DNA from: Octopus sinensis
Taxonomy: Eukaryota
Length of the DNA: 64,000 nucleotides
Assembly: GCF_006345805.1 (NCBI RefSeq)
Contig: NC_042998.1
Span: 149,544,001 to 149,608,000 of the forward strand
Direction of reading: 5' to 3'
Part shown: piece after piece, positions 1,925 through 56,850 of the stretch
Position numbering within the stretch: position 1 is the stretch's first letter
How the letters are laid out: every line of letters starts with the position of its first letter
The notes under the pieces: generated by a model
The model's database searches: none
The model's input: the letters and a program-made list of their open reading frames with translations, nothing else
Told to the model about the DNA's origin: nothing
Position numbers and translations under genes: made by a program

Positions 1925-4900
1925 AAATCCTTAAATCCTTAAAAATGTTTTTGCCCGAAGGCCGCGGCCATGCTGGGGCACCACCGCTGAATGAGCTACA
2001 CTAATATGTGATTCCACTTCTGATACGTGGTCCTTGGTCAATAAGGGAGTTCGATGCCGCTGCCCGCATCTGTGTCTCCTGTCGTGAGGTAGGTTCATCT
2101 GGGACCCCCGACAAAAAGAGATCCAGATTAATTTTAAAGAAACCCACATCCACACCATGCAAGTCTCTCAGGCATTTAGGGAGGATGTTAAAGAGCTGTG
2201 TTCCTCTGAAACCCAAGCTGTTGCAGTATCTGGTCCTCTATTTTGATGGTGATGTTGGAATCTTTGGCACCATGCAATGGCGCCCCGTTCTGCGGTTGGG
2301 GTAACTTTGAATGCCAAATTTTGGGACAAGACCCTCCAGGATTTTCCAGATGTATATCACCGCATATCTCTCCCGCCTTCGCTCTAGGGAGAAGAGTTTT
2401 AATACTTTCAGTCTTTCCCAGTTGCTGATATGTTGCATTGAGACAATCTTCTTTGTGTAGCTTCTTTGAATTGCTTCGAGTTCTGCTGTTAGTTTTATAT
2501 TGTGTGGTGACCATATTTGGGAGCAGTAGTCCAAGCGGCTGAGGACGAAAGTTTTCCAGAGGACCATCAGTGTCTCCTTCGCTCTTGTTCTGAAAGTTCG
2601 GAGAATCCATCCAGCTAGCCGTCTGCATTTTATCACCAAATTAGTAATATGCAGTTGGAAAGATGCATCATTGCTCATGTCAATGCCCAGGTCACGCACT
2701 GATTTTGACTCCGAGATTGAAATTCTTCCTGGGCCAGTGTATCCAGTCTGCATGTCGTTTACCTTTGTGTGCCGGTAACTTACCTGCATTAAACTGCATG
2801 TTGTTGTCCTCAGCCCACCTGTATATTGTATCCAACTCCTGTTGCAGATGTGCAATATTTCCAGGGTTTTGTATTGTGTGGGAGATTTTTGTGTCATCTG
2901 CATAGCTAGCAAGGGTGGCTATCTTAACAACTGAAGGCATGTCTGAAAGGGCCACTATGAACAGCAGTGGCCCCCAAGACAGTGCCCTGTGGAACACCGC
3001 TTGTTATTTGTGTTTCCTTGGAGGTGGCTCCATTGGTCACAACTGCCTGCCTTCTATCTTTTAGGAAGTTGTGCAGCTACTCTCCAAGTTTTCCGCCTAT
3101 GCCGAGACCACCCAGTTTGTGACAAATCATACCGTGGTCGACTTTATCAAAGGCTTTTGCAAAGTCGAGATATATCACATCCACATTTGAGCCATTTAGT
3201 AGCTGTTTTAACACCCAGTCATAGTGTTGCAAGATCTGTGATAGGCAGCTTCTACCTGGTCGAAATCCATGCTAGGTGCCAGTCAGCAAGTCATTTTCTT
3301 CAAGGAACATGATTAGTTTCTTGCGGACTATTCGTTCCATGACTTTGCTGATGTGTGAGGTCAGAGAGATAGGCCTATAATTTTTAGCATCTGCTCTGCT
3401 TCCTCCCTTATGGATAGGGCATATTACCCCCTCTTTCAATTTGACTGGGCTCTTACCACTTGCAAAAAAGCTCTGAAAAAGAAGCTGTAGAGGTTTTTCA
3501 AGAGCTCGTTTTCACGATTTGAGAAGGATCACTGGAAATCCATCAGGTCCGGCAGCTGAGTTTGTGTCAATCTCATCTATGGCCAGTGTGATATCATCAT
3601 CTTCAATGTTGATGTACTCAATTTTTGCCTTTTTGGCCGCAGGTAAAGTGGCAAAGAATTGTTCTGAGTTGTTTACTTGCCTGTGTCCTAGAGGTGTAGT
3701 GAACACACTTTGGAACTGTTCGTTCAGTATTTCACTTATCCTAGTGGGATTTCCTGTGAGAGAGCCATCTTTTTGGAAGAGAGGTCCTATTCTCTGGTGC
3801 ACTGTGGCTGTCTCTTTGGCAAACTTAAAGAAAGCTTTAGGGTTTGACTCTATATTTTCTATTACCCAAGCTTCTTAAATCTGATCTCTCCTTTTCATGA
3901 GACTGATGCAGACTTTTCTCAATTTCCATTAGCATTCTTTCGAGCCGAGACTTCTCACCACTTTTGGTGTGCTTGCTCAGGCGGTTTGCAATCCTTGTCC
4001 GTCGTCTCATAAGAATCCTCCTTTCTCTAGGGATCCTGTTTTTGTTTTTGTCTGTGCCGTCCCTGCACACTGGGACATATTTGTCACATATGGCTTGTAT
4101 TATGGACATGAAGCGTTTGTGTTTCATGTTAATGTCTGGTGTGGAGAGACATTTAGGCCAATCCTGTTTGAGGATCTCTTTCTCGATCAACTTCCAATTT
4201 GCTTTATGAAAGTTAAAGTTGGAGAGATTGTGGATGCTTCGTATAGGCTGTGTGTCTGCGGGGGCTTTTGGTCCATACATAGACAGCTCTATTATGTTGT
4301 GATCCGAGATCATTGTCGGCATCACTTTAACATTATGGATAATATCTATATTGTTTGTGAAGCAGAGATCCAGTATATTATCTGCCCTTGTTGGTTGCAG
4401 CACTATTTGCTCCATGAAAGAGGCATTTGTGAGATGGAGCAGGGACTCTGCCTGTGCCTTCTGATGGTGTGTCATCCCTAGGAGCATCTACCCCCCCCCC
4501 AGGCCATTCCACATTGGGGAAGTTAAAGTCACCCATGAAGAATACACTGTTGTGTTGTTCCAGGTTGGTGAGAACTTCTATTTTTGTTAGGCAGTCTTCA
4601 AACATGCCTGAGTGATTTGGGGCATCCGGTGGTCGATATGTAGTACATATGATGATATTCAGTTGTCTTATGTGTTCAATTTGAGTGTCACACACTGAGT
4701 TTGAATATGACATCAGGACCTGGGATGTGAGGTCATCTCGGATGTACATTGCAACTCCACCATGGCTCCTACCTTTTCTATCTGAGCGTAAGACAGCATA
4801 TTGCGTATGTGTATTTCTGCATCCCCTATATCGGGTCCAAGATGTGTTTCTATGAGTGCCATGCATATAGCTTGATTGCATGCCACAAGGTCTCTCAGGA

Positions 4901-5514
4901 ATGAGATTTTCCTTTTACAGTTGCCGCCAACAGCCCTCCTACGTTCAGTAGAAATATTTTTGTGGTGTGTGTATTGGTGTCTGTGGTGGCCATCCTGAAT
5001 CTGTTGGTGGTGGCCTTATGTGGTGGTCGTTCCAGCTTTGTGTTTGTAGCCAGGTCAGCTGCTGAGCAATTTTTTGTGCCATGCACAAAAAAGATTGCTG
5101 TTCAGCTGCTGCCCTTCTCACATCTGGGTGAAGCTGGCCATTTGTTCGCGCACTACATATGCATAACGTCTTTCAGGAGTGGTCAGCGCGCCATTTTTCC
5201 TTCGTTTATATTTTTCTTTATCGTTTTGTTCTCCCCGAGGGAGGGATTTTTGTCTTGTGTCCATGCGGTTTTGGCAGGGCTTCTGATGTGCAAAACGACA
5301 GTTTGCACCTTCGACGCCATGCCAGCGGTCTCTTTTTAGGTAGAATTTGCAGATGTTTCTGCTTTTGCCCTTATAGTTCTTGCTGGGGTTCTTCTGTTTT
5401 TTCTGAACAGTGTTTGTTTTAGTTTTCTTGTCTTTTACTTCTTGTTTTCCGTCGATTTTAGGGTGCTTTCCTTTTTTTTTTGTGGCCATCGCACCTCTTT
5501 AGTCTTCAGTTGTG
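1925..5514 (-). mobile_element. Near-full-length, frameshifted CR1-type non-LTR retrotransposon (short basic ORF1 with CCCH-like finger, APE endonuclease, reverse transcriptase)
   Basis: Minus-strand ORF pieces carry APE motifs (LLNVGGL, RKGRSHGGVAMYI, YRPP, GDFNFP, NILDLCFTN, SDHNII) and RT motifs (SAAGPDG, GPLLFIV, YADDTK, LDYCSQIWSPH). The 3' end has 8-bp TTTAAGGA repeats. (TA)n flanks both ends. Confidence 0.92.
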
Positions 5515-21889: not shown

Positions 21890-21908
21890 TAATATATATA
21901 TATACGGA

Positions 21909-21975
21909 CATGCTGATGATGGCTGCAGTTTTCCTTGCGGAAAATAAATAACAGCTGAAACTAATTTAGTACATG
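21909..21975 (+). ncRNA. Type I hammerhead ribozyme motif (family 2, copy a)
   Basis: CATG-CTGATGA-T-GGCTG..(TTTTCC/GGAAAA hairpin)..CAGCT-GAAA-CTA-ATT-TAGT-A-CATG. Confidence 0.8.
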
Positions 21976-22416
21976 GGTAATTATTTTATTTCGTATATTT
22001 TTCACTTGTTATTGCTATGGTTTTGTGTTGAGTTTGATCTGAGAACATAATCTTTTGTGGTGAATGGCGATTTGACGTCTATATATAGCATGTTGACTGT
22101 CCACTTTTCGTGTCAGTCCTTAATTGGTATATATAAATATTTTAATCTTCGGATTCTTTTTTAATATGCTAGACCACTGGTCTTAATTGATAAATATCAA
22201 TTTCTACCCTTAATTAATTTTATATAAATAAATATGTTCTCTAAACGATAAATTAACTGCTGCTAGTTATTAGCTGCAGGCTAGTTTTCTCGGGTTCCAA
22301 CGCGCCAAAGTAGAGGCATTTGAAAGATATATTCTAATGTAATAGGCTGAACTCCATGCACGCGATATTTCGGTATCGTGTTTGCATCTAGTCCATCAAA
22401 TTACATTTATAACGGA

Positions 22417-22480
22417 CCATGCATGATGATGGCTGCAGTTTTCCTTGCGGAAAATAACAGCTGAAACTATTTAGTACTGG
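22417..22480 (+). ncRNA. Hammerhead family 2, copy b (indels in core and stem I)
   Basis: CCATG-CATGATGA-TGGCTG..CAGCT-GAAACTATTTAGTA-CTGG. Confidence 0.55.
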
Positions 22481-22631
22481 GTAATTATTTTATTTCGTAT
22501 ATTTTTCACTTGTTTATTGCTATGGTTTTGTGTTGAGTTTGATCTGAGAACATAATCTTTTGTGGTGAATGGCGATTTGACGTCTATATCTAGCATGTGA
22601 CTGTCCACTTTTCGTGTTCAGTCCTTAATTG

Positions 22632-22665
<34 letters not shown>

Positions 22666-27388: not shown

Positions 27389-27460
27389 TGTCTGCGTGGG
27401 ACTCGAACCCACATCTCTTTGTTAACGCGACTAAGCGTGTTACCATTACACCAGCAAATT
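27389..27460 (-). pseudogene. tRNA-like sequence (tRNA pseudogene or SINE head)
   Basis: Minus strand has a D-arm-like TGGTGTAATGGTAACAC and a T-arm GTGGG-TTCGAGT-CCCAC. The anticodon arm is irregular. Confidence 0.6.
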
Positions 27461-42665: not shown

Positions 42666-44344
42666 TATATTATCGTTTGAAATATGTATTATATATGTCT
42701 CAATAATTAATGAATCAGTGATTGTAATTAGTAAATTTGAAGAGGATGATAATAACCACGCCACCAGTAGCAATATCATGTCCACCCATATTCATGCGAA
42801 CACCGCCGGTCAGCCATCATTTCTATAATTTTATCACCATCATGATCATCATAATCATCATAATCATCATAATCATCATTGTAATCACCACCACCGCCAC
42901 CACATGGTCTCTGTCTTTCTCCCTTTGCTTCTGCTTTTCCTGCTCTCGCTCCTGCTCTTGCGCCTCCTGCTCTTGTTCTTGCTGTTCTTCCTACTCCCCT
43001 TGCTCCTCCTCCTCCTCATCCTCCTCCGCCGCCTCTTCCTCCCTCTCATCATCATCATTATGTATGGAAGTCTCTAAATGGTCGTTGCTCCTGTTAGAAA
43101 TAGAAGTTAATTTCCCTGTAAACGCATCCATATTGTTTTAGAAATTGGAAGAAAATAAATTAAAGGAGAGTTATTTATCCCTGAGAATTTGTGATGGCCA
43201 AAGTAGGGATATCATTGATCATAGGTATGTTGCATTGGGGCTGACCCGTGGCTAAATAACAAAAACAACAACTAAAAAGAGACAAAAACAAAAGCAATAA
43301 CAATAATCGTGACAGTAAATATTACATTCTGGTCAATAAATACTGGTAACTATGGCAACCATAATGATATCAGTAACAGAAACCAGACGGTAGATCGGTC
43401 GTAAGATTAACATAAGAACAGCAGTAGCAACTAAAACAACAGTAGCAACAACAACACTCATATTAACCACAACAACAACAGTAAAAAAAAACAGCGTAAA
43501 CAACAAGAATAACAATGATAACAGTCATAAAAATAAACAGCAACAAATGTCAGGAGAAAAACAACGATAAGAACTGCAACAATAATAACAAGAACACCGA
43601 CTATGTCTGTAGCCCCTATGATTGGATTGACTTCTTAACACTGAGCCAGTAGTTCTTTACATTTTTCTTACCCATGGACCCATTGATTCCTATTTTACTC
43701 GGATGAACCCTACTTGCCATTCGATATTTAAAAAGTTGTTTATTTATAGTCTAATATCATTCGGAATTGCACCAAAGACATGTTGGAATATTTTGTGTAA
43801 TGTAGAAGTATCTCTAATTTACTCTTTTACTCTTTAACTGGTTTCAGTCATTTGACTGTGGCCATGCTGGAGCACCGCTTTTAGTCGAGCAAATCGACCC
43901 CAGGACTTATTCTTTGTAAGTCTAGTACTTATTCTATCGGTCTCCTTTGCCGAACCGCTAAGTTACGGGGACGTAAACACACCAGCATCGGTTGTCAAGC
44001 GATGTTGTGGGGACAAACACAGACATACACACATACATACATACATACATACATACATACATACATACATACATACATACATACATACATACATCTCGAG
44101 GCACTGGGCCACTTGGTGTTGAATGGACATACTATTAAATTAGTATCTAATTCTCTCACCCTTATTAATTAATTATAATTATGCTACATTTATTTCTAAA
44201 TGTAGTATTTGTTTCCGTGAAAGTTTGGCGCGCTGTTAGTAGGGGCATTTGAATTATAACGTCGGATGTAATCAATTGAACCACACGTGTATTTATCGTT
44301 ATGGTAAAATCTGGCGTGTGATTGAGTGGATTTCATCCACATAG

Positions 44345-44425
44345 TTTTGGCTGAGGAGCTACAAGTGGGTGTTTTGTAAGTAAAATTACATTTAATTCAT
44401 TAATAGCGAAACAATTGTCCCAAAA
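44345..44425 (+). ncRNA. Type I hammerhead ribozyme motif (family 3), canonical core
   Basis: TTTTGG-CTGAGGA-GCTA..TAGC-GAAA-C-AATT-GT-C-CCAAAA, with a GUC cleavage triplet and palindromic stem III. Confidence 0.88.
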
Positions 44426-44592
44426 TAATCTGTATTTTTGTTATTTTTTATTTGCCCTGTTCGTGTGAGCTAACAATCGTACTGACTTTCATGTGAAACA
44501 TGTATTTTTGTGGTTGAAACCTTTTGGATTTTCTAGTGCTAGAATGAGCCACATAGTGACCATTCTCTTATATTTATTTTTATTTTATATAT

Positions 44593-44620
<28 letters not shown>

Positions 44621-44626
<6 letters not shown>

Positions 44627-44968
44627 AAAGGAAATGAAGAAAATGCTGACAATTAATTGAAGTAATTTAAGTAATTTAATAGGTGAAAGTTCTTTTTACC
44701 GGTTGCGCATTTGTTATGCTTATCAAAATATAAAAGAGAGATTAGAGTTCCTTTCTTATAGAATTTTTCCTCTTATCTGGGAAAAATTCCTCTTATCTGA
44801 GAACCACAGATAAGAGGAAAAATTCTATAAGAAAGGAACTCTAATCTCTTTTTTATATTTTGATAAGCATAACAAATGCGCAACCGGTAAAAAGAACTTT
44901 CACCTAATTAAATTACTTAAATTACTTCAATTAATTGTCGGCATTTTCTTCATTTCCTTTTTATATAT
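44621..44968. repeat. Long inverted repeat (arms of about 160 bp) with a hammerhead-like variant in each arm
   Basis: Arms 44621-44780 and 44807-44968 are near-perfect reverse complements. Confidence 0.9.
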
Positions 44969-44999
44969 CACCACTCGTGTTCGACATCTCCTTTTTTAA

Positions 45000-55348: not shown

Positions 55349-56235
55349 TAGGTTGTCCCAAAAGTCACTGATGGGTTTCAATTTTTAATAACCTCCTTAA
55401 CTTTACAAATAAATACATGAAATTTTGGTACAAAATAAAGAACATAATGAAGATTAATATGCACAAGCAAATTTTGCTTCACCTCTACATCGCATTTGAA
55501 AAGTGGCTTCGCTTAAATGGCAGCCATTTTCGGCTTTGCACGCCTGTGCTCTTTCTAAAACTTGCACCATAACACCCTCTAGAATTTCAGACCCCACTTC
55601 TCCGATTTCTCTATTGATATTCTCCTTCAGCTGCACCAGGGTCTCCGGTTTGTTGACGTAAACCCTCTCTTTCTGGTATCCCCACAAGAAAAGATCCTGG
55701 CTAGTCAAGTCTGTGGAATATGAAGGCCAGTTGACATTGAGTAGCGGGAGATTATTCTCTCTCCAAAGTACTGCTGTAGCAATTGCATTTTTGCTCTAGT
55801 GGTATGAGCAGATGTCCCATCTTGCTGGAACCATGTGTGCGGTCTACTTTTAATTGCTTTTCAGTTCCCCAGATTTGACTAGCCATAATTTTTTCTTGTG
55901 GGGATACCGGAAAGAGAGGGTCTACGCCAACAAACCGGAGACCCGAGTGCAACTGAAGGAGAATATCAATAAAGAAATCAGAGATGTGGGGACTGAAACT
56001 CTGGAGGGTGTTATGGTGCTAGTTTTTGAAAGAGATCGAGCGTTCAAAGCCAAAAATAGTTGCCATTTAAACGATGTCATTTTTCAAATGTGATGTAATG
56101 GTGTTGCAAAATTTGACTAATACATATTAATTTCCATTATATCTTTTATACTGTATCAAAATTTCATGCACTTATTTGTAAAGGTACGGAAGTTATTAAA
56201 AATTGAAACCTATCAGTGACTTTTGGGACACCCTG
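55349..56235. mobile_element. Palindromic Tc1/mariner (rosa-type, DD41D) derivative made of two inverted 3' halves
   Basis: TIRs (T)AGGTTGTCCCAAAAGTCACTGA and TCAGTGACTTTTGGGACACCCTG with TA flanks. Both arms encode DLTS..FLWGY.KERVY.NKPET. The minus arm adds WFQQDG, with 41 residues to the third D across one frameshift. Confidence 0.88.
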
Positions 56236-56523: not shown

Positions 56524-56654
56524 GTGTGTGCGTGTGTGTGTGTGTGTATATGTATATGTATATATATATGTATATATTTATGTATGTATGTATGTATGTA
56601 TGTATGTATGTATGTATGTATGTGTGTGTGTGGGCCTTTGAATTTGTATTTTTC

Positions 56655-56850
56655 CCCCACCATTCGCTTGACAACCGGTGTTGGTGTGTTTACGTCACCA
56701 TAGCGTAGCAGTTCGGCAAAAGAAACTGATAGAATAAGTACCAGCCTTAATAAAATTAAGTGCTGAGGTCGATACATTCGACTAAACATTCTTCAATGCG
56801 GTGCCCCAGTATGGCCACAGTCTAATGATTGAAGCAGATAAAAGATAAAA
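56655..56850 (+). mobile_element. SINE family A tail
   Basis: CGCTTGACAACCG..GATAGAATAAGTAC..GCGGTGCCCCAGTATGGCCACAGTC. Confidence 0.8.

What the first reader, a model, noticed from the sequence alone, without database searches (positions are those of the whole stretch)
44095..44585. Distant relative of the 21.9-kb element with a perfect hammerhead and conserved upstream boxes at the same spacing
Seen: a canonical hammerhead at 44345-44425 has completely different stems from family 2. Both elements share upstream boxes: CCACT(T)GGT, then CGCGC..AGTAG(A/G)GGCATTTGAA (22301-22324 versus 44229-44253), then ATGTAAT..TGAAC. In both, the GGCATTTGAA box ends 98 nt before the ribozyme core. Inference: these belong to an old, diversified family of elements of about 500 nt under selection for the ribozyme fold and a cis-signal (promoter or RT-recognition element).
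Basis: partly seen in the sequence, partly recalled or inferred. Interest (0 to 1): 0.75.

Follow-up and report, generated by a model that had tools for sequence, protein, structure and literature searches.

The report
Retrozyme boxes are RNA helix strands
This is one copy of a young, protein-free jumping repeat with a hammerhead ribozyme motif, and the 'boxes' it shares with distant relatives are complementary to partner sequences elsewhere in the unit, so they likely form RNA helices around the ribozyme rather than a promoter; the kind of element is already known.

Summary
Observation confirmed; interpretation partly revised. 44095-44581 is a 5'-truncated copy (487 of ~535 nt) of young family A; the 21.9-kb element belongs to family B (~507 nt). 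Both are dispersed tandem or two-armed insertions in (TA)n with two fixed 3' ends, the Penelope-like (PLE) signature. They are animal non-LTR retrozymes, a known kind that this scan has already reported many times on other DNA of this genome. The boxes are real: box plus core gives 2103 genome hits against 2 in the control, and 20 of 30 relatives found without using the box carry it 97-105 nt upstream. But the whole unit is homologous, and each box has a complementary partner. GGCATTTGAA pairs across the hammerhead with TTTTCATTTGTC around a tandem U-U; ATGTAAT/TGAAC is one arm of a hairpin whose length fixes the spacing. These helices are 83-98% paired in 28 held-out copies. Two non-ribozyme pairs covary significantly; the box helix itself is too invariant to test. 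No U2/U6-type or Pol III promoter match was found. Likely role: a clamp holding the cleaved monomer's ends, possibly also a protein site. Cleavage, expression and the partner PLE are not shown.

The parts
44095..44581 (+). 5'-truncated single-arm copy of family A (487 of ~535 nt; 7 substitutions from the family consensus), ending at the family's short 3' end
44101..44117 (+). GCACTGG + CCACTTGGT box; predicted to pair with CTAGTGC 44533-39 and GTGG 44510-13
   Evidence: 93-94% of cells paired; 4 of 8 pairs of the CTAG helix change on both sides; the CCAC/GTGG helix shows no two-sided change
44160..44177 (+). site of the family's long 3' end (about 130 nt beyond the short end in the next unit); internal in this copy
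44181..44208 (+). local hairpin ATGCTACATTTA-TTTC-TAAATGTAGTAT; a hairpin of other sequence sits here in other subfamilies
   Evidence: not counted in the alignment because its register shifts
44209..44261 (+). 5' strand of the long clamp helix P1, containing CGCGC (44229-33) and GGCATTTGAA (44244-53)
44264..44338 (+). side hairpin P2; ATGTAAT (44266-72) and TGAAC (44277-81) lie in its 5' arm; its length sets the box-to-core spacing
   Evidence: (alignment A2 column pairs 104-182 and 117-169 covary)
44345..44425 (+). type I hammerhead with 50-nt stem II and 2-bp stem III capped by a palindromic tetraloop; predicted cleavage after C44419
44440..44505 (+). 3' strand of P1; 44447-44456 pairs with the GGCATTTGAA box around a 2x2 U-U loop
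   Evidence: pair probabilities 0.98-1.0
44030..44094 (.). left flank, (TACA)n microsatellite
44582..44627 (.). right flank, (TA)n target tract
21905..22640 (+). family B copy, about 1.45 units of ~507 nt; first hammerhead intact (core 21913), second core carries an extra A; box at 22315-24; ends at B's short 3' end in (TA)n

Best explanation
The stretch is a truncated copy of a young, non-coding, hammerhead-bearing repeat of a ~500-nt superfamily, likely copied by a Penelope-like retrotransposon, and its shared boxes are complementary to partners within the unit and are predicted to form conserved RNA helices.

Shown by sequence: the unit, the copy families, tandem and two-armed insertions in (TA)n with two fixed 3' ends, and box-partner complementarity across subfamilies.

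Inferred mechanism: (1) Tandem arrays are transcribed. (2) The hammerhead cuts each unit after the cleavage triplet. (3) In the released monomer the box strand near the 3' end pairs with the partner at the 5' end, and stem I re-forms; this holds both ends together for ligation into a circle. (4) A PLE reverse transcriptase/endonuclease primes at nicked (TA)n on one of two AT-rich sites of the RNA and copies one to several rounds, giving truncated, tandem and inverted insertions.

The constant 97-105 nt spacing is the length of hairpin P2 plus linkers. Odds: class of element ~0.93; boxes are helix strands ~0.85; clamp-for-circularisation role ~0.5.
For: Copies. Family A: 121 matches from 39 scored of 1197 candidates, full-length ones 96-99% identical, ~534-bp period. 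Family B: 133 matches from 39 of 1386 candidates.

Insertion ends. Two-armed insertions with both ends resolved have one short and one long end in 10 of 10 A insertions and 10 of 10 B insertions. One end per family lay at a locus edge; L013 was left out because one arm is interrupted. An abundant 813-aa RT + C-terminal GIY-YIG PLE shows the same geometry with a ~40-nt tail. The literature describes this as the PLE signature (PMC8557442 passages).

Superfamily. 2103 vs 2 control hits and 983 vs 2 with a box-independent pattern. 20 of those 30 loci have the box with <=2 mismatches at 97-105 nt, against 5 of 120 control windows. The other 10 comprise one with a 3-mismatch box in place (L126) and nine truncated or inverted before the box.

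Structure. 96% of 992 cells paired and 17 of 36 pairs changed on both sides, against 34-52% paired for slid partners. In 28 held-out copies the helices are 83-98% paired against 6-66% slid. With a tree-based null on 47 sequences, pairs 117-169 (E 6e-4) and 104-182 (E 0.02) are significant besides hammerhead stems I and III. The sense strand folds better than the antisense in 17 of 17 copies. Window copy z = -4.6. In the cleaved A monomer the box pairs with positions 28-37 from the new 5' end.
Against: The GGCATTTGAA helix shows no significant covariation: 0 two-sided events, 21 pair-keeping one-sided events and 11 breaks on the tree. P1a and P1b pairs miss the threshold (best E 0.08), and in the all-against-all test no pair reaches E<0.05.

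The partner strand and the core were part of the search pattern, so their conservation in the held-out set is circular. Related sequences inflate the pair counts. The antisense strand of the window copy also beats shuffles (z = -3.45), as any fold-back would. One old F copy folds no better than shuffles (z = +1.7), although the F consensus does (z = -2.8).

No autonomous PLE with a homologous terminal repeat turned up in 201 loci. The abundant PLE's 3' UTR is not homologous to the unit. Cleavage, transcription and circles were not shown.
Confidence: 0.8

Rival explanations
1. The boxes are DNA promoter elements (internal snRNA-type Pol II or Pol III promoter) and the pairing is secondary.
For: Newt satellite 2 has an snRNA-type promoter and the schistosome repeat a Pol III promoter (PMC2220036 passage). 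The box is 91% conserved per column against 75% overall. The unit must be transcribed from somewhere.
Against: A matrix from 6 U2/U6 promoters of this genome scores its own sites 7.9-16.2 leave-one-out but 16 units at most 7.5 (p 0.2-0.94) and at no common position. No A/B box pair is shared by A and B. ATGTAAT is replaced along with its partner in subfamily F. The matrix is small, and other promoter types were not testable.
Confidence: 0.1
2. The complementarity is a relic of an ancestral inverted duplication, and the boxes are merely slowly changing remnants of common descent.
For: PLE-type elements make inverted junctions often. The antisense strand also folds. The box helix lacks covariation.
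Against: Pairing survives at 45-55% identity between subfamilies. Two P2 pairs covary beyond the tree null. G-U pairs make the fold strand-biased in 17 of 17 copies. The U-U/U-U loop is kept in 48 of 56 aligned copies.
Confidence: 0.06
3. The units are solo pseudo-LTRs of an autonomous PLE not yet found, not an independently copied non-coding RNA.
For: Xenopus retrozymes are related to PLE pLTRs (bioRxiv 10.64898/2026.07.22.740005). The insertion geometry is the same as a PLE's.
Against: Arrays of up to 5 or more perfect head-to-tail units occur without coding sequence. No PLE protein match lies directly upstream and in sense in 201 loci; the PLE pieces in L002, L136, L138, L181 and L250 are not joined to a unit in that way. 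Only two PLE proteins were used as queries.
Confidence: 0.07

Closest known systems
Metazoan non-LTR retrozymes (Cervera and de la Pena 2020, PMC7229834; Li, Clavereau and Pollet, bioRxiv 10.64898/2026.07.22.740005)
   Same: Non-coding, AT-rich tandem units, each with a type I hammerhead; monomers, dimers and multimers dispersed in the genome; a 2-bp stem III with tetraloop as described for invertebrates; proposed PLE mobilisation.
   Different: Units of 500-535 nt against 170-400 nt for the tested coral, mussel and axolotl ones, though within the 51-972 bp range of the preprint. Long stem II. A superfamily-wide fold with an end-clamping helix, and two fixed insertion ends, are not described in the parts read. 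Circles and cleavage are untested here.
Penelope-like elements with C-terminal GIY-YIG endonuclease, Neptune/Nematis type (PMC8557442; PMC4209133)
   Same: 5' truncation, partial tandems, inverted 5' arm, a tail on one end, microsatellite targets, hammerhead in the repeat.
   Different: No ORF. The tail is ~100-130 nt rather than 30-40 nt. The hammerhead is large and canonical rather than minimal. No homology to the terminal repeat of the abundant PLE of this genome.
Newt satellite 2 and schistosome Sm-alpha hammerhead repeats (seen only as cited in PMC2220036 and PMC7229834)
   Same: Tandem hammerhead repeat with conserved blocks outside the ribozyme.
   Different: Their promoters are snRNA-type or Pol III. 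Neither type matched here.

Membership tests
Non-LTR retrozyme | Type I hammerhead in each tandem unit | tested here: met
   17 A and 27 B distinct core-to-core monomers were cut from 50 loci; descriptor match; stems I and III covary
Non-LTR retrozyme | Non-coding, no LTR architecture | tested here: met
   No ORF of 120 aa or more overlaps 44095-44585; head-to-tail units only
Non-LTR retrozyme | Dispersed monomers to multimers | tested here: met
Non-LTR retrozyme | Self-cleavage in vitro | not testable with these tools
   Prediction only; 8 of 9 Xenopus dimers tested in the preprint did not cleave
Non-LTR retrozyme | Expressed as circular RNA | tested here: inconclusive
   Only assembled contigs of runs guessed to be RNA were available; a head-to-tail joint fits tandem DNA as well as a circle
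Non-autonomous PLE | 5'-truncated tandem and inverted insertions with a tail at one end | tested here: met
   10 of 10 A and 10 of 10 B two-armed insertions have one short and one long end
Non-autonomous PLE | Microsatellite target | tested here: met
   Most resolved 3' ends run into (TA)n; target-site duplications cannot be resolved inside such tracts
Non-autonomous PLE | 3' or pLTR homology to an autonomous partner | tested here: inconclusive
   None with the two PLE families examined; other clades such as Naiad were not searched
Autonomous PLE | RT plus GIY-YIG ORF | tested here: not met
snRNA-type internal promoter (as in newt satellite 2) | PSE like that of host U2/U6 genes | tested here: not met
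   (matrix from 6 promoters; low power)
tRNA-derived SINE / Pol III type 2 | A and B boxes shared across the family | tested here: not met
   (consensus patterns recalled); no Rfam tRNA match over the unit

The most novel reading that the evidence does not exclude
The near-invariant GGCA-UU-UGAA / UUCA-UU-UGUC duplex, which clamps the two ends of the cleaved RNA, is a sequence-specific docking site for the borrowed PLE reverse transcriptase or for the ligase. The whole ~500-nt unit would then be a structured template RNP, loosely comparable to telomerase RNA for these telomerase-related enzymes. The superfamily's natural compensatory series would map the cis-requirements of PLE trans-mobilisation, which the papers read treat as unresolved.
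Probability: 0.25. Interest if true: 0.7.

Novelty: new member of a known kind. Interest (0 to 1): 0.4.

Why it matters
The class is known, and the scan has met it repeatedly in this genome. What this locus adds is an explanation of the conserved boxes: a superfamily spanning 45-99% identity, with over 2000 units, keeps one predicted fold in which a long helix brackets the hammerhead and would hold the cut ends together. That gives ready-made compensatory mutants for testing how animal retrozymes circularise and how a PLE enzyme recognises them. It also warns against reading conserved blocks in such repeats as promoters.

Tried and rejected
Rfam: no hammerhead hit at gathering or E<=5, probably because of the long stem II. 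Repeat finding in the window was swamped by microsatellites.

Promoter: U6 (12 loci read, 6 with promoter-like upstream DNA in three types) and U2 (10 loci) promoters do not match the boxes; Pol III boxes are not shared.

Expression: no RNA holder listed on record. Contigs of five runs cover the unit and show the head-to-tail joint, including one 565-nt closed contig, but contigs cannot tell RNA circle from tandem DNA. Depth relative to a neighbouring PLE was similar in guessed-RNA runs and a DNA-sized run. No conclusion is drawn.

Partner search: two PLE proteins against 201 loci found no joined ORF. The most divergent subfamily F (55 matches, 20 loci) showed none either. The PLE piece in L250 is separated from the unit by other DNA.

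All-against-all covariation found nothing at E<0.05. Satellite growth by unequal crossover was rejected because of dispersal, fixed ends and inversions.

Literature searches found no paper on cephalopod retrozymes or this fold. The library lacks most subscription journals and Repbase/Dfam were not searchable, so the families may be catalogued there.

Full report
1. Observation. The hammerhead at 44345-44425 is a complete type I motif, and a descriptor scan of both strands finds only it and the one at 21913. The boxes are at the stated places. The gap between GGCATTTGAA and the core is 97 nt in both family consensuses. The upstream similarity exceeds shuffles: 0 of 1000 reach it with loose scoring and 3 of 1000 with blastn scoring. 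Whole-unit blastn scoring is only marginal, 36 of 1000. Two details fail: the 22.4-kb core has an extra A, and 'AGTAG' is a feature of these two copies rather than of the consensuses.

2. What the element is. The 2.72-Gb host genome G000 holds many near-identical copies: 121 matches from 39 scored of 1197 candidates for the 44-kb element and 133 from 39 of 1386 for the 22-kb one. Earlier scan notes call the host octopus-like, and the flanking SINE looks like an octopus SINE from recall; I did not establish the species. Units are ~535 nt (A) and ~507 nt (B). Insertions are 5'-truncated, often tandem, often with an inverted arm, and end in (TA)n at one of two fixed sites ~130 nt (A) or ~100 nt (B) apart. 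All 10 resolvable two-armed A insertions and all 10 B insertions use one site per arm; one end in each family lay at a locus edge, and L013 was left out. The window copy is single-armed, starts at consensus position 285 and stops at the short end, with 7 substitutions. An abundant PLE in the genome (813-aa open frame, RT plus C-terminal GIY-YIG with a CxxxxCxxC linker, which I class as Neptune/Nematis type by motif) has the same target and two-end geometry with a ~40-nt tail. Passages of PMC8557442 describe this as typical of PLEs.

3. The superfamily. Box plus core at 90-104 nt gives 2103 hits against 2 for the reversed pattern. A pattern that ignores the box and excludes A and B gives 983 against 2. 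Of its first 30 loci, 20 have the box within 2 mismatches at 97-105 nt, against 5 of 120 control windows. One more has a 3-mismatch box in place, and nine are truncated or inverted before it. Subfamilies form a graded series from 45% to 92% identity that links A and B, and the whole unit aligns collinearly.

4. What the boxes are. Alignment folding of 28 copies pairs the CGCGC and GGCATTTGAA region with sequence downstream of the hammerhead, and ATRTAAT with ATTAYAT just upstream of it. In the window copy G44244-A44253 pairs with 44456-44447 at probability 0.98-1.0 around a tandem U-U. Of 17 copies folded singly, 14 place the box on this partner as the best option with probability of about 0.7 or more, two with about 0.3, and one prefers another partner. 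For 36 named pairs, 96% of cells pair and 17 pairs change on both sides; slid partners give 34-52%. I then fetched 60 more loci (one a duplicate); 28 spanned both arms and, not having been used to derive the structure, gave 83-98% pairing per helix against 6-66% slid. With a tree-based null on 47 non-redundant copies, hammerhead stems I and III and two P2 pairs (117-169, E 6e-4; 104-182, E 0.02) are significant within the proposed set. P1 pairs are not (best E 0.08), the box helix has no two-sided change on the tree, and nothing passes in the all-pairs test. The CCACT box and the GCTAG before it pair with GTGG and CTAGC; 94% of cells pair in 29 copies, though two of the five shuffle measures are not exceeded. 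In old subfamily F the ATGTAAT box has become ACATGAT with a matching partner, and the box gap is 96-100 nt in 11 of 15 copies; one F copy did not fold better than shuffles. The spacing is thus the length of hairpin P2 plus linkers. Caveats: the partner strand was part of one search pattern, copies are related, and the antisense strand also folds, though less well in 17 of 17 copies.

5. Promoter test. U2 and U6 genes of this genome share an upstream element near -63 to -78. A matrix from six of them recognises held-out sites (7.9-16.2) but nothing above chance in 16 units. Pol III boxes are not shared. A promoter of another type is not excluded.

6. Mechanism. Cleavage falls between the box and its partner. 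In a released monomer the partner is at the new 5' end and the box near the 3' end. The predicted fold pairs them and re-forms stem I, and the same helices appear when the unit is folded as a circle. I infer a clamp that favours ligation, then PLE-driven priming at (TA)n from two sites and one or more rounds of copying. Stem III has 2 bp and a palindrome, so both monomer and dimer cleavage are possible (PMC4209133 passages; PMC7229834 passages). The box duplex is more conserved in sequence (0.91 per column) than stem I (0.59), and U-U/U-U is kept in 48 of 56 copies, which leaves room for protein recognition. Cleavage, expression, circles and the partner enzyme are not shown.

7. Comparison. 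This is a metazoan non-LTR retrozyme as defined in PMC7229834 (passages and Discussion read) and a non-autonomous PLE derivative as argued in bioRxiv 10.64898/2026.07.22.740005 (parts 1-3 of 5 read; supplements closed). PMC2220036 was seen as two passages. Five searches found no cephalopod retrozyme paper; unseen supplements and repeat databases may list the families. Earlier scan notes report the same class, the two-end geometry and a ~534-nt unit on other DNA of this genome; a search by sequence found nothing. None of the listed snippets explains these boxes.

8. Verdict. A real feature and a new member of a known kind. The boxes are best read as conserved RNA helix strands. Interest 0.4.

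Noticed in passing
window 44628-44970: A near-perfect palindrome with ~170-nt arms sits between (TA)n tracts right after the element; it may be another two-armed insertion of a different family.
   Followed up: no
window 43846-44020 and 56572-56786: Two inverted copies of a SINE-like repeat (80% alike), which also recurs in many fetched loci.
   Followed up: no
window 55468-56115: Inverted repeat with 251-nt arms, 86% complementary, 146 nt apart.
   Followed up: no
window 27391-27458 (-): Weak tRNA match (34 bits), probably a SINE head.
   Followed up: no
window 2188-4914 (-): Broken LINE-like endonuclease/RT frames (family recalled, not tested).
   Followed up: no
L093-L122, L164:2375-5130: Abundant PLE (18226 candidates, 91-97% protein identity among the 150 scored) whose minimal hammerhead has a non-canonical core, TTTGAAAA instead of CTGANGA, in every copy visible (output partly cut).
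   Followed up: partly
L181:1969-3399 (-): A second PLE family, 29% identical to the first, with a C/T-rich 3' end.
   Followed up: partly
G000:C1:141.83-141.95 Mb (L089-L092): Tandem array of variant U6 genes with their own promoter variant; several other U6 hits lack promoter-like upstream DNA, and two abut TA-rich tracts.
   Followed up: partly
L227-L236, L081, L086, L089: A shared U2/U6 upstream element (core about A-A-A-T-Y-A-G) at -63 to -78, a candidate PSE for this animal.
   Followed up: partly
alignment A2 columns 273-275: Most subfamilies have a GUA cleavage triplet (37 of 56 copies), and 8 have GUU, which is usually poorly cleaved (recalled); family A has GUC.
   Followed up: no
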